Notes: a model not told the origin generated them from the letters alone. 58,512 nucleotides of DNA from Asterionella formosa (GCA_002256025.1 NKIB01013392.1:1-58512), one strand, 5' to 3'. Shown: positions 14,453 to 58,400, counted from the first letter of the stretch. A program made the numbers and translations.

Positions 14453-15210
14453 TTAAGCTATCTTGCCAACTTGCTTGTTACATATTTTACGAAATTCGTC
14501 ATAATGATCAACAAGTAGTTGAAATCTATTCCACCATTGACTTTGTTTATCCCGTAACATGCAATTCCTTGCAGTCACCTCGCACAGTATGCGCAATATG
14601 CTGTGTGTCAGAACTTTTACAGTCAAGGTAACCATCGCTTTCTAATAGCTTTCTAATAGAATTTTATGGAGCATACAGCATGATGTGAACGTATTTTCGA
14701 CATGCTCAGGTCGAGACAAGTTGTTCCAGTTCTTAAGAAATAACCATCGGCTTTTCAATATACCAAAAGTACATTCAATATCTTTTCGAACAGACTCCAC
14801 CATCATACCCCATGCCCTTTCTTTTCCATGTTCATTGCCATATTTAATTGGACAAATCAACACTGGCCATCGTAGGTACCCTCCATCACAAATGAAATAG
14901 AAGCTTTTACAAGTAATAGTAGACGTGTTAGGAACTTCTTTCACCAACATGACTCTTCCCTTGACATCAGAGGTTGTTTCTTTCTTTTTCGCTTAGCAGA
15001 TGTTGTTGGATGGCGATTTCTGTTGGACGGCAATTGCTGATTCCCTCTTTCAGATTGAACTTCCAAATGGAACTGAGAAACCAGCTCATTTCGCAATGCA
15101 GCTGGCAAGGCTGCTGGTAGTTGCTATGACAACCATTGTTGCTTCCATGGCTGCACACACTGTTGATAATGTGCCAGGAAGGTTGACGATAGCGTTGGAG
15201 GAGTTGTCAT
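14453..15210 (-). pseudogene. Harbinger/ISL2EU-type (DDE_Tnp_4/Plant_tran-like) transposase with internal deletion and stops
   Basis: FICDGGYLRW, ESVRKDIECTFGILKSRW, CCMLH motifs. The N-terminal frame MTTPP...KRKRKK...SCW*KKFL abuts the C-terminal part, so the central region is missing. Confidence 0.8.
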
Positions 15211-46398: not shown

Positions 46399-49392
46399 TT
46401 AGGCCTGAGAATCTTTAATAATCTGTTTGAAGCTGTACGGATTGAATCGAATACCATCTGCATAGAAAAACTTATTCTGAAACTCCACCCAATGAAGACG
46501 AAGGGCATGGAGGAAACATTCCAAGACATCCATCATCAACAACACACCAAACGTTACACCTGCAAAGATAGCGAACCCAATGTAGGCAGCAAACCAATTC
46601 ACTTGCAACGTAGAGAGCATAGCCTTCTCCCAAAATACAGTGGCCAACTCAGAGTGAGCCAAGGAAAGAGCCCAAAGACGAAGGTAAGAAGCTGTGTTAG
46701 ACACCATACCCAACACAAATTCAATTGTTTCAATTGCCTGATGAATCACAATTTCTCCAAAATTGTGTGAATCCTCGTCGTGCTCGTGATCACCGGCTTC
46801 TTCATCGTCATCCACGTGGTGAGTGATAAGAGTATGGGAATGCTGTTTCGACAAAAAGTAAGGTTTGGCGAGAAGTAGGATAGGAACGGAAACAAATGCA
46901 ATCAAGATCAACAAATTTTGGATTCTAGGCTGGCCAGCATACATGGGCTCTTCGACGTGGCCAGGCTGCAAGGCAATGTTGATGAGCGTCGTGATAAGGT
47001 TAGGTGGCTGACAACCGTCACCAGATCCACCGTAGTTGAGCGGGCATTTGGTAGCAGTGGTATCTGATCCAGTGCAGGAATATCCCCAGGGAGTACAGGT
47101 TCCATCTCCTCCTTGGGCACAAACAACCCATTCACCATTATAGTCCGAAGTGCCCCAAGTGCCACCGTTCGGATCAAGGCAAGTTGCAGAGAGCATGCGA
47201 GAGTTCCAATTGATGGTCCACTTCATAAAAATCAGGACAATCATGTACACAAACAAGGAAGACGCAAATGCCACCATGGGAAGGAACTCAAAGAAAAAAT
47301 CAAGTCTTTCTCCAAAGTAGATGGCATTTAATCCCTTCAAGCAGGTACCAGCAAACATCTGAATAATACCAAAAATCACCGAAAGCTTCATCTTGAATGA
47401 ATTGAAGAAAAGTAGCTCATTGGCGGACACATGCCACATTGGATCAAGACCGAATGGATAAACAGAATTATCACTTCCAAATGGGGCACTCTGAACCCCA
47501 ACTGCGCCACTTGCGACATTGCCTTCTGCTTGACCTTCAAAGGACCAGCGCGAGCCAAATAGGTTGAGTCCAAGCGAGAAGCAATCGTTGTAAATTAAGC
47601 CTGCATAAATGGCAAAGAACCCCATCATAATGATCATGTACCTGCAAATGATACGTAATGAACAAAACCGAGAGTGAGCTCGACAAATAATGATAGGCAA
47701 AAAGTATTGTAGAGGCTACGCACCGTCCGGCATGAAGACCAGCAGTCATCTCTCCAAGTCTGGCTTCATCGTTTGCTTTTTCATTCCACAAAAGGTACAA
47801 ACCCCCCGAAAAGAGGAATAACCCGTGTCCAATATCTCCGTACATGACACCGAACAAAAAGGGGAATGTGGCAGCAGTAAACAAGGCAGGGTTGGCTTCT
47901 TGGTAGCGAGGAATTCCATAGGTGTTTACAAACTCCTGGTATCCGTATGTAAACTTGTTCGTGGTAAAGTGTGTGGGAGGAGTGGGCCATGGCTGTGGAA
48001 CGTGGTCCACCATGGATGGCATGGACGTGTCCATTGACGAATGTGCCGAGTTGACTGCCGCCCTGACCGCGTCCAAGGATTCCGCAATAACCCACCCTTC
48101 GCCTCGAAGCATCCCGGTTACGTCCGCCTTGAATTGATTAAGAGAGTGGTAGATGGATTTTTCCCGCAACACAACCCAAATCCATTTTTCTGTCTTGGTG
48201 GCCAACATTTGGCAAAGGCGGAAGCGAGTGTCTTGATTTTTAAGCAAGACAGTGCGCGAGTCGACCAATTCTTGAGCATTTTCAGTCAGCATGCGATCTA
48301 CAGCAGGGGCATCGTCCATGTCTGGAAGAGTGTAACGGTGCGCACCAAAGGCGTCACAAATCTTTTTGAGTTTGGTCTCAATCGAAAGTGACTTGTAAAA
48401 GACAATGAAAACACATTTCTCCACCAGGAGTCCCGAGTTTGGGTCCGTGATGGGCTGCTCAATGCTCGCAAAACGCACGTAGCAGTTTCCACGAGTGGCC
48501 CTGAAAATCATGCGTTCAAAGCGCCCCTTCTCTTCCATGCTCACGACTCCCGTGATGGATGAAAAGCGCATATCCAAGTCTCGTCCGGCACCTGCCCCCA
48601 ACAGGTTGTCTGAATGGCTGTTCCCATCGTCGCCTGAAGCAGCCCCAAGATTGGCCACGGCAAGACGAGGAGCGTCCTTCATGAAGAACTTGCGTGCCTT
48701 CTCTAGTACTTCCTGCAGTTCCACCTTTTCGTTGTACTCTGTCGTGAGCTTCTCCGAATACGAATTGAGCTCTCTGAGCTGCGTTTCGTACCCCTCCAGT
48801 TCCACTTCCATGGACTCCAAGAGCTGGGCGCCAGATTCCTTAGTCCCGGGTGTTGTTGCTTGCTCCAAGAAGTTATCGATGGTGCCTGCTGGTTCCACTT
48901 CTAGCTCGAACTTGTCGCATTCAGCAGAGAAGAAACGGAGCCGACGCTCGAGTTCGTCGCAGCGCCTCACAAAGGAAACGTAGCGACGCTGGAAGGGAGT
49001 CAAGTCGGGGTTCAACTATCATTTGTGTCGTTATTCGGTGCAGTATAGATGATGGTACCAGGTAGTGCCAAGGAGGAAATGGAGATGTGAGACAAAGATG
49101 ATCGCGACAACGAGTCAGTGAGGGCAAAGAGAGTATTTTACACAAGAATTTAAAAAAGTAGCCAATGATGTTGGACAGACACAGCAAACAAGATAGCTAA
49201 ATAGTTCGTTCTGGATTTCATCCATGTATATGTGTAAACATACATACCATGCTCAATGTACAACAAGGAACTTACATCGGTAAACTGAATCACACCCATC
49301 CTTCCCAGATCAGCAAGACAATCATGAGCAGCATCTTCGTTGACAATCAACGAGATGTACTTCATAGGTTCCGAACGGAACCAGCGAGCCAT
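46399..49392 (-). CDS. V-type H+-ATPase V0 subunit a (Vph1/Stv1/ATP6V0A family), introns 49016-49275 and 47642-47723
   Basis: FRSEPM, QFTDLN, FERMIFRATRGN, PPTHF, YGIPRYQEANPA, MYGDIGHG, NSFKMKLSVIFG, SNTASYLRLWALSLAH (essential Arg), HALRLHWVEFQNKF. Confidence 0.97.
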
Positions 49393-49636: not shown

Positions 49637-50703
49637 ATATACTAACTATAGACCATACAGCATGTTATAACTGGCGCTACATACCTACCAGTGTGTGCTT
49701 TTACGTCGTAATTACTTCATACACACTACCTTGTACCTGCTCCCTCTGAAATTAGATCTGTCGTATTGTGTTAGGGTTACATTTTGTTTGAGAGTGCCGG
49801 TACGGTACGACCCGCTATAGCTACGGTACATGATCATACGCACACCGGTACCGGTACATCGATATGATACTTCTATGTAAAATGAGGTACTAACCAGTGC
49901 GTGTGTTTTTGGAGCGAACAAATTGATTCACCGGCATATACCGGTATACCGGTTTATGTATTGTGAATACATCCATACATCTGCTGGTGGTAAATATTTC
50001 CGGCAGCTACCAGTACCACGCCACCTCGTGTAAAAAGTCGGAATATCATATCATACCATACCTTCTGTAGAAAAACGCAACGCCAACACGAGCCCGCAAG
50101 TCCCTAAGTAATCATCCTACAAATATTTCGAAAGTCCCACCTTATATAGGCAGACCATAGTGCCTACTTTAGGCGTAGTAAACATATGAATAAGCATGTG
50201 ATGCACTTTTTAAGACCTAACAAAAAGCCTAAATCACGGAATCAGCAATGCACTAAATAGGGAAACTCGTACAGCTTTTGCGATAACAACGTCAAGTTAT
50301 TGATGAGCATCCCATCATGTATGAAAAGGCAGAGTTTAAGATAGAGACATTGACGAAGAAGGGGGTGGAAAGTTCTCCTACAATTGTATCTATCAAGCAT
50401 GGTGAAACAGACTAAGGGTCTTGGACAGTTTTCAAATTGTTCATCACATACTTTAAAAAACATAAAAAAATATATGCATTAAAGGAACTGGATCATAAAA
50501 ATACCTTCTTGGATAGTTGAGGTAAAACCTGCTGCTGGGCTGCTAGCAAACCAGCCTAGTCACACAAGATTTGTAAACACATTTTCATGAATGTGATACA
50601 CCAAGATGTCACATCAAACATAATGATAGCACACTGTCCCTGAATTTAATATCCATTCTTACAAAGGAAACTAATCTTTTCCCGTTCAGCTGTGTCCCAA
50701 ACA

Positions 50704-50912
50704 GCCAGGGGAATGGCTTAACTGGTGGTTAGCCCACTTTATGAGGGGTTGGATTCGATTCCTGCATTCTCCACCTGTCATTCTCCCTAGGGTTCCGGGG
50801 GGTGAAGCTGATGAAGAGACAGGCCCCATTGCACTTTATCCATTCAAGTGGTGGGCATGAGTGCGATTATTGAATAGCTTTAATGTACTATAAAATTTAA
50901 TTGACATTTTTG
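50704..50912 (+). mobile_element. tRNA-derived SINE, copy 1
   Basis: Degenerate box A (TGGCTTAACTGG) and box B (GATTCGATTCC), shared body and AT-rich tail. 20-bp TSD GTTCAGCTGTG(T/C)CCCAAACA at 50684-50703 and 50913-50932. Confidence 0.82.
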
Positions 50913-51263
50913 GTTCAGCTGTGCCCCAAACATTGAATTTAATCGAGCCATGATTGGTATGAAAGATCAAATGATAGATTTTAAGTCCCAAAGTTGCAAG
51001 TAAAATCTTTCGAATTCCCCCATAAAATGATGCTTGACAAATGTTATCTTCACCACTCCTCCGTCTCCTATGAGGATAATCTTGAACTTGGGTCTGTGGA
51101 AGAAGTATATGGAGGAGGAAGCAGGTTACAAGAAGGGGACTGGTGGGTGCAATAGGTAGTCCTGTTTTCTTTCTAGTTTAATTGCAACAAGATACAAAGT
51201 GTTTGATACCACGACCTTACCATGCTAATATTTGTGTCTATGCAGGAAGTGCTGATCGTAGTT

Positions 51264-51821
51264 CTAGAAACAAACACTTTTGGGAGTACTGGTGGTTGCT
51301 ACATAACGGAAATGTTTGTGTTGTAGCTCTCCATATTGACGCAACCTAAATGAACCAGGTCAAGCATGGAAACCTCCGCACTGATCAAGCATTGGTTAGG
51401 AGTGGTGTGAATGAAATATGAGCACCGGTAGCTGGCATACATACCATCTACTGAATCTACGTGGCGGGGGGTGGTTTAGTGGTTAGCACACCTTCTGCGG
51501 TGGTAGGTTCGATTCCTGTCTTTTTCATGTAGTCCCCAGGGTCCCGGGGGTTGCGGCTGAAGAAAAGACAGGTCCGGTTGTACCATACAAATGATTAAAA
51601 GTGGTACTAATTGTGTCCATTTATTTGGGCCTAAGTGCGATTATTGGATATTTTAAAATGATACGACTATAAATCTACATGCCCTCTACAGCTCGTTGTT
51701 CATTCACATTCCCCGCCAGTGTGAGCTGCCATGCTTGACCTGGTTCATTTAGGTCGCGTTCATATGGAGAGCTACAAAACATACATTCCAGTTGTGTAGC
51801 ATCAAAAAGTGTTGTTTCTAG
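51264..51821. repeat. ~100-bp inverted repeat (arms 51264-51369 and 51729-51821) enclosing SINE copy 2
   Basis: GTAGCTCTCCATAT...ACCTAAATGAACCAGGTCAAGCATGG is the reverse complement of CCATGCTTGACCTGGTTCATTTAGGT...ATATGGAGAGCTAC. Confidence 0.85.
51464..51671 (+). mobile_element. tRNA-derived SINE, copy 2
   Basis: Box A TGGTTTAGTGG (51472-51482), box B GGTTCGATTCC (51506-51516). TSD AATCTAC(G/A)TG at 51454-51463 and 51672-51681. Confidence 0.85.
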
Positions 51822-52758
51822 CACATTAATCACCTTACTAAAAACCAAAAATGAAAGCATTTTCTGTGATAGGACTAAGCAGCACTCCAAATTATCAGTT
51901 TCTTGGAATAATCACCACAATGAAGACACTGTCTTCGTGGACAATGATAGGAAAGGATGACCAGTCATGATATTTGACACCTATTGCTTGACCTATGTCA
52001 GGGATATTAATAGAGAGTCTAAAGTTTACATATTAAACAATAGTTATACGTCCTCCTTCGAAGCACTATCAGCACTTTCTACTATATTAGGTATGGATGC
52101 ATCAGTGTGGTCCGCCCGAGTTAGAAATCATTCTTGCGCGTACTTTTTGTCCTGACCGTTTTTTAGATGGTGTCGGTTTAGGACACACAAGGGTACATTG
52201 TGAAGTGTCTAACTTGATGCTCTAGCTACAAGGCATATTTAAAATCATTTTCGTAGTCATTGACATCCCCTACCCATGTACCTTTGCTGATCCTACTTCA
52301 ACTCACCCTGCATGCTCCTCTCTTGCCTCTGGATTTCATCAGGTTTGCTGCTCTCACCTTTTTGGGCCTGCTGTCCTACATATTATTCCTGCTGGCAAAG
52401 ATCGTCTGCCAGACTTCTTATTTTAAATTAACGGAAATGGCCATACAAATGCCTGATGTCGCTACCTTCTGCATCGCCCAATACACTTCTTTGGCTCTCT
52501 TATTATGTAGCATTCAGCTGGCAACCCCTATAATTGATTCGTCTAATTCCCGGATTCTCGTATTTTAGTTTTCCGAAATTGACTCTGCAGTTTTCAAATT
52601 GCTTTCTATTTCATGACGACTTGCAGGAGGCCTCTGTGCTCTCTCTGTGTCTCCTATAATGCTATTCACATGACACCGCCATCATTGGCTCCTTGCCCTT
52701 GCTCAACATATCTACAGCTTTTTCCCTAGTCTGCAGCTCCTAAGAGTCCAATAATGGA

Positions 52759-52998
52759 GGGGAGTGGCTTAGTGGTTAGTAGCACACCCACTGTGGTGGC
52801 GGGTTTGATTCCTGCATTCTCCACCTGTCTTTTTCATGTAGTCCCTACGGTTCCAGGGGGTGCGGCTGGCTGACGAAAAGACAGGTCCCATTGTTTTGTA
52901 TGGACAAGTAAAACCGGTACTTATTGTGTCCATCTATTTTGTGGGCCCAAGTGCAATTATTGGATAGCTTTAATGTACTATAAATTTTAACTGGCATA
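52759..52998 (+). mobile_element. tRNA-derived SINE, copy 3
   Basis: Box A TGGCTTAGTGG, box B GGTTTGATTCC. 18-bp TSD TAAGAGTCC(A/C)A(T/C)AATGGA at 52741-52758 and 52999-53016. Confidence 0.85.
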
Positions 52999-53521
52999 TA
53001 AGAGTCCCACAATGGACTCTCCCTGACTCATCATTCCCATGTGGCCAATATCATGGACTATATTGTTGCTGCAACAAAAGAAACTCCATTGGATTTGAGT
53101 TTCAATGTAAGTGTACATTAAGCATTATTTGCCTAGTTACAAATTTAAGTTTGTGTGAAATAAGTCTGTTGAGTTCTCTTTACCATAATCATATCGAGTT
53201 CTGATTATGCAAGTTTAACAGTAACCACATAAATCTTGATGTATACAGGATCTCTTTATGAATAACAATATTTGCTTGATGCGACACATAGTTGGAATGA
53301 ACTTGTAACATAGTATAGGGACCGCCATTAAAAAAAGGATAAAATGTTGTTGGATTATCTGGTGGCAACACCAGTATTTATTTCATCACCAATATAGAGT
53401 GATAACAAAAATTAGCATCATGGCAAAGGCGTTCATCAAACTTAATCTTTCCTTGGCGGTGTAACAATTGTAAATCAGGGATCAAAGCAGGCAGGAATAA
53501 TCAATATTGTATAGTATCCAA

Positions 53522-53673
53522 TTGATATCACCCAAATCATTCCAGGATTAGCAAGACAAGAACCATTAGCAGCATCTTTATTAACCAATCAAGGAGATGT
53601 ACTTGATATCACTCAAATCATTCCAAGATCAGCAAGACAATCATAAGCAGCATATTCATTAACCAATCAAGGA
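53522..53673. repeat. ~80-bp tandem duplication
   Basis: TTGATATCAC(C/T)CAAATCATTCCA...AGCAAGACAA...AGCAGCAT...ATTAACCAATCAAGGA occurs twice. Confidence 0.8.
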
Positions 53674-53951
53674 AGCAATGAGATGCACTTAAAAGGATCT
53701 GAACTGTATAGCAGCACCATATTTTTTCTTACAGTAGTTAGATTTGAGCTGGTTGTTGTCAGAATCTTCCAATGGCATTCTCCATGTTTATTGTCCCTTG
53801 TCTTGGAGCATGTATGATTGGACATCCAGAACACCTGTCATTGTTGCATTGCCAAGCGAAATCATAAAAACTCCCATATAAAGAGTGCTTCATTCAATTT
53901 TCGATTTACACCCAACTTCCTTTTGATGTCGTCAGTATTGATGACTTCAAT

Positions 53952-54160
53952 CATTTTAAATTCATTAAATTAAATTTATAATAGAATTTTAAAGCTATCC
54001 AATAATTGTTCTTGTGCTAAACAACAAGTGGACACAATTTGTACCACTGTATTTGTCTTGTACGGGTTCCTTTCCATCAGCCACATGAAGATGCCAGGTG
54101 GAGAATCTGGGAATCAAACCTGCCACCTCAGAAGGTGTGCTTACCACTAAGTCATTCACC
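53952..54160 (-). mobile_element. tRNA-derived SINE, copy 4 (reverse strand, internally deleted or variant body)
   Basis: Reverse complement reads TGACTTAGTGGTAAGCACACCTTCTGAGGTGGCAGGTTTGATTCC...AATTATTGGATAGCTTTAA. Perfect 13-bp TSD TGATGACTTCAAT at 53939-53951 and 54161-54173. Confidence 0.85.
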
Positions 54161-54568
54161 TGATGACTTCAATTGTTTTATCATTGGATGCCTTGAGGAT
54201 ATCACCTGGTACTGTGGCATGATGGAATTGGGCCTCCACACCGTCGAGGGTCCATTGACTATGGCATGGCAGCTCCCAAGTCAGCCTCCACTCCATTGCA
54301 AACAAATTTCATTAATTCCATTGTTACATGGGTAAAACTAGTCTATCATCATAGTTTGTCGTAAAATCACAGCAGCAGTTGTACAAACGAATTGAAATCA
54401 TCGTGAGCGATTGGGATATCAACACATGATTATTTGTTACTTTATTTCCAGAATGATATAATTCCTCGCTCAAAGTAGATTCGTTCACTTGTTCCTTAAT
54501 ATATTCGATTAAAATATTCGTGTGTTCTTCGAAAAGTACATCATCATGGCCGCAAAAGTATTGTAAAG

Positions 54569-55459
54569 TTAGTTGGCACCAAAAAGGTCCATAAGGGGGA
54601 CAGATCCAGGGATGGATTCAAACGCAAACATGGAAGCCATGGCAATCATACCAGCCCGTCCGTTCTTCAACTCCACATCCTTGTAATGCGCAAGCTTTTC
54701 AGCAGATAGCTTCTTTGTGAATCCAAGAGGCTTCGTTGTGACGAAAGACACGACAATGCATATAAACGGGCACAATGGAGTCAGGTCAAATCAGGGTCGG
54801 GACAGAACGATGTATACAAGAAATTAGTAATTCTACTCACATCAAATCCCAAATTTCCTGCTTCCTTCGTGCTCATTCCTCTCCAGTCGTCACCACTGTG
54901 TCCAACCGACTCTCCTTCAGCGAGGGAGATGAAAAGAAGGACAGCGCCAAAAAGTGCGGGTTGTTCGGCCTGCACAACACCAAGAGCCGTGGTCCAGTCA
55001 CTCGCTTCAGGCATGCCAGGAATGTGCATGCCAAGTCCCATGCCGCCCTATTAACAAGAATGAAGCAAAAGAGAGTGAGCTTAACTAATACCTGCACTAT
55101 GCCATAAAAGGGGGAAGGGAGACTTCCATACATGACAGGAATAGTATCAGAGTTCAAACGGTATTCTGAATCTCTCTATACGCAAATCACAGGACTCTAC
55201 TCACAACATGGGTGGCCCAGATTCCAGTCCAGGCAAGCATCGACATGCGTCCATGCTTAATCTCCGATTCATTCAAGTACTGGTAGTCCGGGAACATGCC
55301 AGGGAAAGTATCGAAGGCTTCCCCTTGTCCAAGCTTTCCAAGGCTCATTGGATCCCAACTGGCAGAAAGAGCCGATTGGCGAGAGACGGAAGCGGCAGGG
55401 ACAAATGCCGATGCGCCGGCAGCAAGAGTCGCAGCGAGAGCAAGAGATAGCTTGGCCAT
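54569..55459 (-). CDS. Light-harvesting fucoxanthin-chlorophyll a/c binding protein (LHC; subfamily uncertain, possibly Lhcr-like), introns 55048-55204 and 54731-54840
   Basis: Signal peptide plus ASAFVP; ESEIKHGRMSMLA (helix 1); GNLGFDPLG across the splice junction; VELKNGRAGMIA (helix 3). Confidence 0.95.
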
Positions 55460-58400
55460 GGTGAGCGTCGACGTTGAGTGCAGAGTAGGGTAAGTCTAGT
55501 CAAGCGGAGGAGGAGGAGCGAGTGTATAGCGAGCTCTCTTTTCCTGATGTGTTGCAGAAATCATAAGTACTGAAAGATATGCAAGAATTTCTTCAATGCA
55601 TAAAGGACTCACCCGACCCCACAATTAATGCTACGTCATGCTCCCGTCTTGGTGACGTATTGATCAAAAGCCACATACCTACGATATCATACGTACTATA
55701 AATCCAACGTGTGGGCTGCTGGCTGCATAGCGATACCTAAATTAACGGTACCAGTACCTGGTACCAGGGTACCTTGTACGGTACAAGTACCCTGGCACCA
55801 TGCTGATCATGCCTGATTGATACTACGAACGTACCCGAAAACTAATCAACTCTCAGCGCAACCTTTTTTGGCCATACATGTTGTCGTGGTTTTATACTGC
55901 ACTGGTAGTTTAGTAGTCCGCTTACCGGCAATTTGCGGTAATTTTGCTACCGGTATACGAACAGTGTGATCCATATCTTAGTGCTACACACGTCATCATG
56001 CCAGCAATAGTGATTCCAATTCCAAATTGATTCATGTGAATCTCTTATGATTTTTCATTTCATTTAATAAACCACCCCACCACCTGGTTGTTTGGAATTA
56101 AATGTAACTTTAATCTGATTTAGCCTACAACAATTTTGAGACCTATCTTTTTACTTATTCTGCCAGTTGGTACCATGATAGCTAGGGTTTGCTTAATGTT
56201 TGACCGCTTTGCTTGAAGTATCGATTTCCCTTAATGTGTGATGTCATCATTTCAACCCAAATGCCAGCATCACAGCCAAATACCTACATAACACTGTAGT
56301 TAATAATACAGCATACCGGCGGTAAACAACAAGGTGAAGTAGTAAGGAATATATTGCCCATGAAACATGCGGCCGATATATCATACACCTTTTGATGGAT
56401 GCATGTACAGGGTACCGGAGGTAGCCCACATAGGCACTAGAATGTAATTATTTAGGGGGGGGGGGTGAACTAGTCATTCTGAACGGCTGGAGAGCGAATT
56501 CTGCATAATGTTGTCCCAGCCTTGACCATGACAAAGATAACAAATAACTTAACGAAAAATCAGAACGACGCTTTGCTATTTTCTACGTACAATCACGACA
56601 TCATCGACAATGCAATCAAAACAATTATGCTGATTACACTGATATTGACAACGAAAATTGAAGCACATTTTTTCATGTAAATCAGCGATGCATGTTTTTA
56701 AAATGACATGTTACGAGAAGCTTTGACACTTTTACAGTAGTTACACAACAAATAATACTACAACTACTACGTCGATAACATGAATAATTGGAGCAACAGA
56801 TGCTAAATAAGTTATTTATCTGCTGATAATTGATTGATTACGAATTGGCAATTTATATATTGGTAAAAGCTGACAAACGTGAAGTATGCTGTCAAAACTA
56901 TTAGTGATACCCTATATTAATGTTTGGCAGCCCCTTAATGCAGCAGCATACATGTGAGTGCATACAGGAGTGCAGAACACCATTATGAAATAATGCTACA
57001 CCTTGCGATCCACTTTTTTTACCAACACATTGTTGACATACAGGTAGACCAATGCAGGTAAATCTCTTTCCTTCTGTAGCGACACATACAGCCATGTACA
57101 TATGAATTCAGGACTGTGCACGCTTGTCTACAAAGTTTAAGCAAAATATTGCTTCAAATTGTCTTGCTTAAAGTTGAGTCCATCATTTGCTTAACACTAA
57201 ATAGTCTTTCAGTACTTTAACCCAAAATAAAACGATTTGGAAAGCAAAATGGCTGTTGATCCAGACTACAATAGTAGTAAGACACTATAAAGACGTTAGT
57301 TGTTCTTACACAGGAATGGGAGGTTGGGATTGGAGGGTAAAAGCCAGAAAGGCTATTTACAAGGGTTGAAAGGAGTAGAGTGAGTAGAGTGAAATTCATT
57401 TACTGCTGGTGCAAAATTCTGTGGGAGACAGTGGCAATGCTATTTCGTGCTGGCTGTACTCCTGCAAACACAGCAATAGACCGAATTTATGAGCCATATA
57501 GCCAAGACAAAATAGTGACATACAAACTCATGCATCTGATACAAGATTGTTGCACTGGCGGGCATTCACTACTGTGTGTTTAGATAATTTCATTTAAATA
57601 TTAAAATTGCAATCTCTTTAGTATATACATTGCTTGTTTACTAGTACCTCAATTGTTATTAACTATTTAATCTACTAGTAGTAGAATGGTTTGCATGTAA
57701 TATGCATATTACAAGAAAACTGGCTGGGGAGGTACGACAACAAGGGATTTCATTCCATGACAAAACTATTAGAGGTGATGGTATTACCCACTCTATACAA
57801 GGCAGTATATACAACGAGATTTGTCGAAGGTGCTAGTTACCAGAGCACTACATAGGTACGGCTAGATATGATAGCCAGCCTATATAAGTAGTATCATACA
57901 TCTCGAGTTTTGTCGAAAGTGCTACCGGTAGTCTACTTAACTATAGAACTGGTACCATTGCACCAAATAGTTACGACTCCATGTGTACCAGGTACCACTA
58001 GACTACCAAGTATCCAGTCGATACACGTACATATCGCGAGCTTTGTCGAAGGTGCTTTAGTAAAGTACCAGTGCAGTATAAAACCACGACAACATGTATG
58101 GCCAAAAAAGGTTGCGCTGATTTGAGAGTTGATTTATTTTCGGGTACGTTCGTAGCAGAATACTCCTACTTACGAGGTATTAACGGTACTTGCGTCCTGC
58201 CTTTGTGTGAACTCCTTGAGCAATTCCCGCTCCAGCTATCGTCTTGCCATTTGGGTACTTCTAAGTAATTTTTAGGCTCCAAGTAATTTCTTAAGTAATT
58301 TTTATTTAAGGGCAATATGGGGCACATCGAATTTTTCGGCAATAAAATTGCCGATTTTAGCATGACAACCAGAATATCGGTAATATGCATAGAGATGGTA

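What the first reader, a model, noticed from the sequence alone, without database searches (positions are those of the whole stretch)
50684..54173. A tRNA-headed SINE family in a diatom: four copies in 3.5 kb, each with its own TSD
Seen: four ~210-240-bp homologous elements (three +, one -) with Pol III box A and box B, a shared body, a conserved 3' segment (TGC(G/A)ATTATTGGATAGCTTTAA...TATAAA) and AT-rich ends. Each is flanked by a different 10-20-bp direct repeat. Established: this is the signature of LINE-mobilised SINEs inserted by target-primed reverse transcription. To my knowledge SINEs are scarcely characterised in diatoms. The box A-B spacer is only ~23 nt with a single CACC/GGTG hairpin, shorter than in tRNA. 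The local clustering suggests a hotspot or targeting.
Basis: partly seen in the sequence, partly recalled or inferred. Interest (0 to 1): 0.78.

Follow-up and report, generated by a model that had tools for sequence, protein, structure and literature searches.

The report
High-copy tRNA-derived SINE in a diatom
Four copies of a short mobile element that starts with a tRNA-like piece sit in one gap between genes of a freshwater diatom, and the same element is repeated on the order of a hundred times or more in that genome, giving one of the few clearly defined SINE families in diatoms.

Summary
Four homologous elements of 202-240 bp (three +, one -) lie at 50704-54160. They are the only four in the 58.5-kb window.

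- **Structure:** each has a tRNA-like cloverleaf head with box A and box B motifs 23-26 nt apart, a shared body, and an AT-rich 3' segment.
- **Flanking repeats:** three copies have 18-20-bp direct repeats that 0.2-0.4% of control positions match. The fourth has only 9-10 bp.
- **Host:** a diatom of a lineage with no named close relative.
- **Genome-wide repetition:** contigs from three independent DNA runs pile up roughly 40-340-fold on copies 1-3 and 4-8-fold on copy 4. They break into unrelated flanks exactly at the element ends.
- **Family 3' end:** the family majority ends in an oligo-T run.

This fits a tRNA-derived SINE family. Three things are inferred, not shown: Pol III transcription, the partner LINE, and target-primed reverse transcription. 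The window has no reverse transcriptase in 144 ORFs scanned. The clustering is nominally unusual (p about 0.001, post hoc), and targeting is unproven. Published diatom SINEs seen here are only pipeline classes. Dfam, Repbase and SINEBase could not be searched. Verdict: new member of a known kind, moderate interest.

The parts
50684..50703 (+). c1 target-site duplication, 5' copy (20 nt)
   Evidence: It matches 50913-50932 at 19 of 20 positions (family D8). Only 4 of 2000 control positions reach this score.
50704..50912 (+). SINE copy c1 (209 nt). Four extra nt precede the head, which starts at 50708. It has an internal deletion in the body and ends in T5.
   Evidence: Profile hit at E 3.6e-52 and alignment. 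Contigs show loose ends with unrelated flanks at 50911 in all 4 runs.
50913..50932 (+). c1 target-site duplication, 3' copy
   Evidence: family D8.
51454..51463 (+). c2 candidate target-site duplication, 5' copy (9-10 nt, one mismatch; weak)
   Evidence: Read. In the abutting-repeat test 32-41 of 3000 controls reach its score. It is not distinguishable from chance in the free-placement test (582 of 2000).
51464..51671 (+). SINE copy c2 (about 208 nt). It lacks about 18 nt just after the T arm. It lies inside a local palindrome.
   Evidence: Profile hit at E 2.4e-58, alignment, depth pile-up.
51672..51681 (+). c2 candidate target-site duplication, 3' copy
52741..52758 (+). c3 target-site duplication, 5' copy (18 nt)
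   Evidence: It matches 52999-53016 at 16 of 18 positions. 8 of 2000 controls reach this score.
52759..52998 (+). SINE copy c3 (240 nt), the most complete copy and the closest to the abundant subfamily
   Evidence: Profile hit at E 2.8e-64. Rfam tRNA hit at 52759-52823, 21.4 bits, E 0.57, below the gathering score of 29. It carries the highest depth pile-up.
52999..53016 (+). c3 target-site duplication, 3' copy
53939..53958 (-). c4 target-site duplication (on the 3' side of the element as the element reads)
   Evidence: It matches 54161-54180 at 18 of 20 positions (family D9), with a 13-nt exact core. 4 of 2000 controls reach this score.
53959..54160 (-). SINE copy c4 (202 nt), the most diverged copy, with a deletion in the body
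   Evidence: Profile hit at E 1.4e-47. Inverted repeats I2-I9 match the other copies. The depth pile-up is only about 4-8-fold.
54161..54180 (-). c4 target-site duplication (on the 5' side of the element as the element reads)
   Evidence: family D9.

Best explanation
These are four old, fixed insertions of a tRNA-derived SINE family, a short non-autonomous retroposon, in the nuclear genome of a freshwater diatom.

**Proposed mechanism.**
1. RNA polymerase III starts at the first G of the tRNA-like head, directed by the internal box A and box B.
2. It runs through the roughly 130-nt body and the AT-rich tail and stops at the terminal oligo-T run.
3. That RNA is copied into DNA at a staggered chromosomal nick by the endonuclease and reverse transcriptase of an autonomous non-LTR (LINE) element encoded elsewhere in the genome. 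This leaves target-site duplications of variable length, 9-20 bp.

**Shown.** The family, its sharp ends, its high repetition, the tRNA-like head, and the variable flanking duplications.

**Inferred.** Pol III transcription, the LINE partner, and target-primed reverse transcription.

**Clustering.** Four copies in 3.5 kb most likely reflect accumulation in a rare large AT-rich gap between genes in an otherwise gene-dense region. Active targeting is not excluded.
For: **Only four copies, all in the cluster.**

**tRNA-like head.**
- A cloverleaf with a 7-bp acceptor stem, a 3-bp D stem, a 5-bp T stem and a 4-bp hairpin in place of the anticodon arm pairs in 87.8% of cells. Slid partners pair in 45-57%.
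- Rfam tRNA matches c3 end to end at 21.4 bits.
- Box A and box B motifs are 23-26 nt apart.

**Flanking duplications.** They are different for each copy and 18-20 nt long for c1, c3 and c4. Only 4, 8 and 4 of 2000 controls score as high.

**Genome-wide repetition (contigs laid at 80% or better).**
- On the 4-kb stretch 6274 pieces were laid from X1, 774 from X2 and 758 from X3.
- Summed depth on the peak bin of c3 is about 340 (X1), 160 (X2) and 300 (X3) times typical flank bins. For c1 and c2 it is about 40-105 times, and for c4 about 4-8 times.
- Up to 97 distinct contigs cover one c3 position in X1.

**Sharp ends (table 7).**
- At 50911 there are 39, 25, 18 and 10 loose ends with non-agreeing flanks (agreement 0.41-0.48).
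- Before 52780 the loose parts end in the shared head start, preceded by unlike letters.
- After 52990 the family runs on for a few letters into a run of 6-7 T.

**Insertions shared between studies.** X2 contigs bridge all eight junctions with at most 5 other letters each. The piece over c4 also has 10 gaps. An X3 contig bridges two junctions (table 8).

**Copies outside the window.** Two loci of one JGI metagenome, L074 and L079, hold family copies.

**Host.** A diatom, with an FCP/LHC gene next door.
Against: - No reverse transcriptase or endonuclease was found in the window: 0 of 144 ORFs scanned. No LINE carrying the same 3' end was found among the 118 loci that hold the tail motif.
- There is no evidence of a discrete Pol III transcript. 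In the RNA-library run X20 the ratio of element depth to flank depth is no higher than in the DNA runs, and one X20 contig runs from flank into c1.
- The box A to box B distance of 23 nt is shorter than in any class I tRNA, which has about 32 nt by my recall. It is also below the 25-50 nt that SINE-Finder accepts. Promoter activity is therefore not assured.
- ARAGORN at default settings finds no tRNA in any copy.
- The c2 duplication is weak, and the one complete outside copy (L074) has no clean one.
- No empty-site allele appeared among the 15 joints shown. 105 further joints were not shown.
- Three of the four window copies have at most a two-T end (c3 ...CATA, c4 ...AATT) or stop short of the T run (c2).
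- No covariation is seen in any helix. This is expected for decaying copies but gives no positive support.
Confidence: 0.8

Rival explanations
1. The cluster is a true integration hotspot. The partner retrotransposon is drawn to Pol III-bound DNA or to existing SINE heads, as Dictyostelium TRE elements and yeast Ty3 are (recalled), so copies seed further copies nearby.
For: - Four insertions span 2.6 kb of non-SINE DNA. Simulated random insertions do so with p = 0.0004 over the whole window and p = 0.0011 within ORF-free space.
- In L079 one family member is followed directly by, or interrupted by, a second copy.
Against: - The window was picked because of the cluster, so the p-values are post hoc.
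- Spacings between copies are irregular (about 550, 1090 and 960 bp) and orientation is mixed.
- Flanks of other copies show no shared sequence (agreement 0.41-0.6).
- No Pol III gene was detected in the window.
- The gap of about 5.2 kb between genes also holds other junk: a palindrome, a tandem duplication and another repeat. That fits passive accumulation.
Confidence: 0.15
2. Local duplication of a tRNA pseudogene-containing segment, not transposition.
For: All four copies lie within 3.5 kb, and none lies elsewhere in the window.
Against: - Each copy has its own different flanking repeat.
- The sequence between copies is unrelated.
- The element is repeated on the order of a hundred-fold in three runs, with unrelated flanks.
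- Copies exist on other contigs.
Confidence: 0.02
3. A non-autonomous element of another class: a MITE or other DNA transposon, or an LTR-type element carrying a small-RNA-like piece, such as a solo LTR or the Helenus/Ajax kind listed.
For: - The tRNA-like piece is followed by A-CC in 5 of 6 copies (alignment). This recalls primer-tRNA or strong-stop origins proposed for some SINEs (recalled).
- LTR retrotransposons dominate the diatom repeat content reported for P. tricornutum.
Against: - No terminal inverted repeats were found within or at the ends of copies.
- Flanking duplications vary from 9 to 20 bp, instead of a fixed 2-10 bp (DNA transposons) or 4-6 bp (integrase).
- The ends are not TG...CA.
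- No paired copies flank an internal region.
Confidence: 0.03

Closest known systems
Plant tRNA-derived SINEs as defined for SINE-Finder and AnnoSINE (PMC8825457, passages read)
   Same: - Box A and box B sit in a tRNA-related head.
- A body of 20-500 nt follows.
- The tail is a low-complexity stretch that may be poly(T).
- Flanking target-site duplications abut the 3' end.
   Different: - Box spacing is 23 nt in 3 of 4 window copies, below the 25-50 nt window.
- Duplications reach 20 nt, against the 8-16 nt quoted there.
- The host is a diatom.
- No sequence comparison with plant families was possible.
infSINE families of the oomycete Phytophthora infestans (PMC3429519, passages read; the primary paper, Whisson et al. 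2005, was seen only in its reference list)
   Same: Short non-autonomous elements in another stramenopile, said to carry an internal Pol III promoter.
   Different: - The passage read reports 32 copies of infSINEm. Here the pile-up is on the order of a hundred-fold.
'Putative SINE' classes from automatic repeat annotation of diatom genomes: P. tricornutum has 13 copies covering 1,454 bp (PMC5859163). SINE classes are also reported for Cyclotella cryptica and Skeletonema costatum (PMC8147415 and PMC7466962).
   Same: The same host group and the same nominal class.
   Different: - The passages I read give counts only, with no head, tail, duplication or partner.
- Here the anatomy is explicit and the copy number far higher.
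- Their supplementary tables were not consulted and might list families.
tRNA-related AfuSINE2 of Aspergillus fumigatus (PMC5063351, abstract seen in the listing)
   Same: tRNA-related SINEs in a microbial eukaryote with short direct-repeat duplications.
   Different: The duplications are 4-14 bp there and 9-20 bp here. The hosts are unrelated and no sequence comparison was made.

Membership tests
tRNA-derived SINE | Short (under about 600 bp), non-coding | tested here: met
   The copies are 202-240 nt. Pfam finds nothing in the ORFs that cross them.
tRNA-derived SINE | Dispersed multi-copy family with defined 5' and 3' ends | tested here: met
   One search shows pile-ups of 40-340-fold on c1-c3 in three DNA runs. 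Loose ends with unlike flanks fall at 50911, before the head start and after the tail. Outside copies are L074 and L079.
tRNA-derived SINE | 5' head related to tRNA, with internal box A and box B | tested here: met
   - Rfam tRNA matches c3 over model positions 1-71 at 21.4 bits, below the gathering score of 29.
- The cloverleaf pairs in 87.8% of cells, against 45-57% for slid partners.
- Box motifs are found in 6 of 7 heads.
- The consensus box motifs are recalled.
- Promoter function was not tested.
tRNA-derived SINE | Target-site duplications of variable length | tested here: met
   The duplications are 20, 18 and 20 nt for c1, c3 and c4, matched by at most 8 of 2000 controls. c2 has 9-10 nt and is weak. 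L074 has none detectable.
tRNA-derived SINE | 3' tail that is A-rich, T-rich, a simple repeat, or derived from a LINE | tested here: inconclusive
   The tail is AT-rich. It ends in T5 in c1 and T8 in L074, and in T6-7 in the family majority (loose ends after 52990). c2, c3 and c4 lack the run. Derivation from a LINE could not be tested.
tRNA-derived SINE | Autonomous LINE partner in the same genome, sharing the 3' end | not testable with these tools
   No genome is held. The window has 0 of 144 ORFs with reverse transcriptase. None of the 116 other tail-motif loci extends the match beyond the motif.
tRNA-derived SINE | Pol III transcript from head to terminator | tested here: inconclusive
   Contigs of the RNA library X20 cover the copies, but with no enrichment over the DNA runs, and they run into the flanks. 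Contigs cannot show transcript ends.
Genuine tRNA gene | Complete cloverleaf with anticodon arm, detected by tRNA finders | tested here: not met
   ARAGORN at default settings finds 0 of 6. Only relaxed thresholds give inconsistent calls. The anticodon arm is reduced to a 4-bp hairpin.
MITE / DNA transposon | Terminal inverted repeats and fixed-length duplications | tested here: not met
   No inverted repeat joins the two ends of any copy. The duplications vary from 9 to 20 nt.
Solo LTR / LTR-type non-autonomous element | TG...CA ends and 4-6-bp duplications | tested here: not met
   The ends are GGGG... and an AT-rich or oligo-T stretch. The duplications are 9-20 nt.

The most novel reading that the evidence does not exclude
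This would be the first anatomically defined, high-copy SINE family of diatoms, with two unusual properties. Its Pol III transcript ends in oligo-U, and that end is used directly for priming. Its partner retrotransposon integrates preferentially next to existing Pol III-type heads, producing the cluster and the nested pair in L079. That would be a self-seeding insertion preference not described for algal SINEs.
Probability: 0.12. Interest if true: 0.6.

Novelty: new member of a known kind. Interest (0 to 1): 0.42.

Why it matters
- **Gap in the literature.** Diatom genomes are described as dominated by LTR retrotransposons. In the passages I read, SINEs appear only as small automatic classes, for example 13 putative copies in P. 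tricornutum, and their roles are said to be poorly understood.
- **What this adds.** A family with clear head, body, tail and duplications, and on the order of a hundred or more copies, shows that LINE-type retroposition has been substantial in at least one freshwater diatom lineage.
- **Practical use.** It gives a marker family for insertion-based phylogeny and population typing of that lineage in lake metagenomes.
- **A concrete search.** It points to an unidentified LINE partner.
- **Limit.** It is not a new kind of element.

Tried and rejected
**Whole genome and earlier findings.** No genome is held for this window, so no genome-wide count or LINE search was possible.

**Collection scans.**
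Only 2 of the 118 loci (L074, L079) are family members. L021 and the rest share just the motif.
- Scans of genome contigs with two patterns and of viral contigs with the same two patterns found nothing. This is expected for prokaryotic and viral collections.

**Known RNA families and structure.**
- Rfam over the whole window at gathering threshold gave 0 families.
- RNAalifold on 6 copies gave no covariation and no convincing body structure.

**Source tRNA.** It was not identifiable. ARAGORN at relaxed thresholds gave inconsistent guesses (Cys, Trp, undetermined) for 3 of 6 heads, which I reject as uninformative.

**Expression.** X20 gives no verdict.

**Empty sites.** None appeared among the 15 joints shown, and 105 were not shown. 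The joints that were shown are other family copies aligning partly to one window copy and partly to another.

**Palindrome around c2.** I considered it as a MITE. Its arms have single-copy depth, so it is not a repeated family at 80% identity.

**Phylogeny.** The careful tree search did not finish. Only the quick tree is reported.

**Catalogues.** Dfam, Repbase and SINEBase cannot be searched with these tools, so 'not catalogued' is untested.

**Literature.**
- Searches found no paper describing the anatomy of a diatom SINE.
- I read only the passages that contain 'SINE' or 'SINEs' in PMC8147415, PMC7466962, PMC12803021 and PMC5859163. I did not read their supplements.
Full report
**1. What is in the sequence**

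Reading 50300-54600 and the repeat scan show four homologous elements:
- c1: 50704-50912 (+)
- c2: about 51464-51671 (+)
- c3: 52759-52998 (+)
- c4: 53959-54160 (-)

They align over their whole length, with internal deletions in c1, c2 and c4. Pairwise identity is 69-78% among the window copies and up to 86% with outside copies.

These are the only four copies in the window:
- A motif over box B and the acceptor strand gives 4 matches against 0.00 expected.
- A motif over the conserved 3' block also gives 4 matches against 0.00 expected.
- A profile HMM of the four finds them at E 1e-47 to 3e-64 and nothing else below E 0.036 in 58.5 kb.

**2. The head**

All copies begin with a run of G followed by a box-A-like motif. 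A box-B-like motif follows 23 nt later in c1, c2 and c4, and 26 nt later in c3. For c2 the script's pattern caught a false box A, and I read 23 nt from its printed spacer. The consensus forms of the boxes are recalled, not taken from a tool.

Evidence on tRNA likeness:
- Rfam's tRNA model aligns to c3 from model position 1 to 71 at 21.4 bits. The gathering score is 29 and E is 0.57 for a search of all 4227 families. Most of the anticodon arm is missing.
- I wrote out a cloverleaf with a 7-bp acceptor stem, a 3-bp D stem, a 4-bp hairpin replacing the anticodon arm, and a 5-bp T stem. On six copies 87.8% of cells pair, against 45-57% when the partners are slid by 1-3 columns. No covariation is seen, as expected for decaying copies.
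- ARAGORN finds no tRNA at default settings and gives inconsistent guesses when relaxed.

So the head is tRNA-derived but is not a tRNA gene, and the source tRNA cannot be named. In 5 of 6 copies the acceptor strand is followed by A-CC (alignment printed). This is a weak hint of a processed-tRNA origin. I only note it.

**3. Flanking duplications**

The copy ends were set by the HMM envelopes, not by the repeats. I then searched 40 nt on either side for the best direct repeat and compared the result with 2000 pseudo-elements placed at random in the rest of the window.

| Copy | Repeat | Controls reaching the score |
|---|---|---|
| c1 | 20 nt, 19 of 20 | 4 of 2000 |
| c3 | 18 nt, 16 of 18 | 8 of 2000 |
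| c4 | 13 nt exact within 20 nt at 18 of 20 | 4 of 2000 |
| c2 | 9-10 nt with one mismatch, abutting both ends | 582 of 2000 |

When the c2 repeat is required to abut the ends, 32-41 of 3000 controls reach its score. A second 14-nt candidate lies 12 nt off the head.

The complete outside copy L074 has no clean duplication. The lengths of 9-20 nt and their variability are those of staggered-nick retroposition. They do not fit transposase or integrase.

**4. The host**

The window is gene-dense with long exons. It holds a dynamin, a CBF/Mak21 protein, CSE1/exportin-2, V-ATPase subunit a, a PsbP-like protein and a fatty-acid desaturase.

- For the 957-aa CSE1 ORF, every named hit at 44% identity or better is a diatom. 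The first named non-diatom is Tribonema at 41%. The closest relatives, at 81-83%, are unnamed.
- In a quick maximum-likelihood tree the protein and those two unnamed relatives form their own branch inside a diatom clade of 19 rows with SH-aLRT 100. The outgroup holds Tribonema, two oomycetes and a moss. The careful search did not finish.
- A chlorophyll a/c-type antenna gene lies at about 54572-55495 (-).
- Runs that hold the stretch are labelled algae or freshwater metagenomes.

'Diatom' is therefore supported. The lineage has no named close relative in the data seen.

**5. Is it a dispersed family?**

No genome is held, so I laid contigs of three DNA runs from three studies (X1, X2, X3) and one RNA-library run (X20) on 50400-54400 at 80% likeness or better.

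*Pieces laid.* A single-copy stretch of 4 kb would need a few dozen pieces. Instead 6274 pieces were laid from X1, 774 from X2, 758 from X3 and 410 from X20.

*Depth.* Typical flank bins are about 760-2700 in X1, 7-17 in X2 and about 27 in X3 where covered.

| Copy | X1 | X2 | X3 |
|---|---|---|---|
| c3 peak bin | 511,761 | 1617 | 7994 |
| c1 | 157,129 | 420 | 2257 |
| c2 | 105,838 | 406 | 1482 |
| c4 | 11,196 | 38 | 146 |

The tool warns that summed contig depth is not a copy number. I take it only as on the order of a hundred or more copy-equivalents within 80% of c3. Up to 97 distinct contigs cover one c3 position in X1.

*Ends.* The loose-end table places the family's ends where the duplications do:
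- After 50911, 39, 25, 18 and 10 contigs continue into letters that do not agree with each other (agreement 0.41-0.48).
- Before 52780 the loose parts end with the shared head start, preceded by unlike letters.
- After 52990 the family majority continues for a few letters into a run of 6-7 T.

c1 ends in T5 and L074 in T8. The others have at most a two-T end (c3, c4) or stop short of the run (c2).

*A second head.* A second head variant with a slightly different box A is common (60 loose ends before 52795 in X1). It is also seen in L079.

**6. Age and fixation**

Contigs of X2, from another study, bridge all eight element-flank junctions. Each piece has at most 5 other letters, and the piece over c4 also has 10 gaps. 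An X3 contig bridges two junctions (table 8). The duplication pairs differ at 6 of 68 positions in total. The insertions are therefore old and shared, not recent. No joint skipping a copy was among the 15 shown, and 105 were not shown.

**7. Expression**

The RNA-library run X20 covers the copies, but its ratio of element to flank depth is no higher than in the DNA runs. One of its contigs runs from unique flank through c1. A discrete Pol III transcript is therefore not shown.

**8. Partner**

None of 144 ORFs scanned (16, 128) has a reverse transcriptase or an endonuclease domain. Of 118 loci, only L074 and L079 carry the family, and none of the others extends the similarity beyond the 18-nt motif. 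The partner is unknown.

**9. The cluster**

The four copies lie in a gap of about 5.2 kb between genes. On one side is the V-ATPase gene. Pfam support for it ends at 49015, and an upstream exon to 49407 is my reading. On the other side is the antenna gene.

Simulated random insertions span as little DNA with p = 0.0004 over the whole window and p = 0.0011 within space free of ORFs of 100 aa or more. This is post hoc, because the window was flagged for the cluster.

- L079 shows one family member followed directly by another.
- Against targeting: spacing and orientation are irregular, other copies' flanks share no sequence, and no Pol III gene is detected.

I favour passive accumulation in a permissive AT-rich gap, and I give targeting about 0.15.

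**10. Comparison with what is known**

- The anatomy is that of tRNA-derived SINEs as defined for plants. The tail may be poly(T) and the duplications abut the 3' end (PMC8825457, passages). The box spacing here falls just below that tool's 25-50 nt.
- In stramenopiles, Phytophthora infestans has infSINEs with an internal Pol III promoter (PMC3429519, passages).
- For diatoms, the passages I read report 'putative SINE' only as pipeline classes. P. tricornutum has 13 copies covering 1,454 bp (PMC5859163). They state that SINEs were reported in only two or three diatom species and are poorly understood (PMC8147415 and PMC7466962).
- Searches found no paper giving the anatomy of a diatom SINE.
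- Supplements were not read, and Dfam, Repbase and SINEBase cannot be searched here. Prior cataloguing cannot be excluded, though the host has no named close relative.

**11. Verdict**

The mechanism steps beyond the anatomy are inferred. This is a new member of a known kind, of moderate interest for diatom genome biology. The hotspot idea remains open.

Noticed in passing
window 51261-51369 and 51729-51824: Copy c2 sits inside a local palindrome with arms of about 105 nt (82 nt at 85% plus a 22-nt extension). The arms have single-copy depth in the laid runs, so it is not a repeated MITE family at 80% identity. Its origin is unexplained.
   Followed up: partly
window about 52008-52141: Another short repeat lies between c2 and c3. 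Summed contig depth is about 7-15 times the flanks in X1, X2 and X3, with contigs of very high depth around 52100. It has no second copy in the window or in the fetched loci and no Rfam match.
   Followed up: partly
window 50916-51084: A second version of this stretch, with 31 differences in about 170 nt, is present at about half depth in X1 and a third of the depth in X2. It is the only form seen in X20. Its contig starts right at c1's 3' duplication. It could be a diverged allele or a paralogue. Whether that version lacks c1 could not be seen.
   Followed up: no
L079 1-296 (minus strand): The head and about 35 nt of body of one family member, with a variant box A, are followed directly by a second copy that lacks the box B region. 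This is a nested or adjacent insertion. The contig ends with the second copy.
   Followed up: partly
window 53522-53661: A tandem duplication with an 81-bp period and 78% identity lies in the same gap between genes.
   Followed up: no
window 14645-14992 (-): An ORF fragment matches PIF/Harbinger-type transposase domains (Pfam Plant_tran at 9.2e-13, DDE_Tnp_4 at 2.1e-06). It is a DNA-transposon remnant or a domesticated gene.
   Followed up: no
window copies c1, c3 and c4, plus L074 and L079b: The acceptor-like 3' strand of the head is followed by A-CC in 5 of 6 copies. This resembles the start of a CCA end and hints that the head came from a processed tRNA. It could be chance.
   Followed up: no
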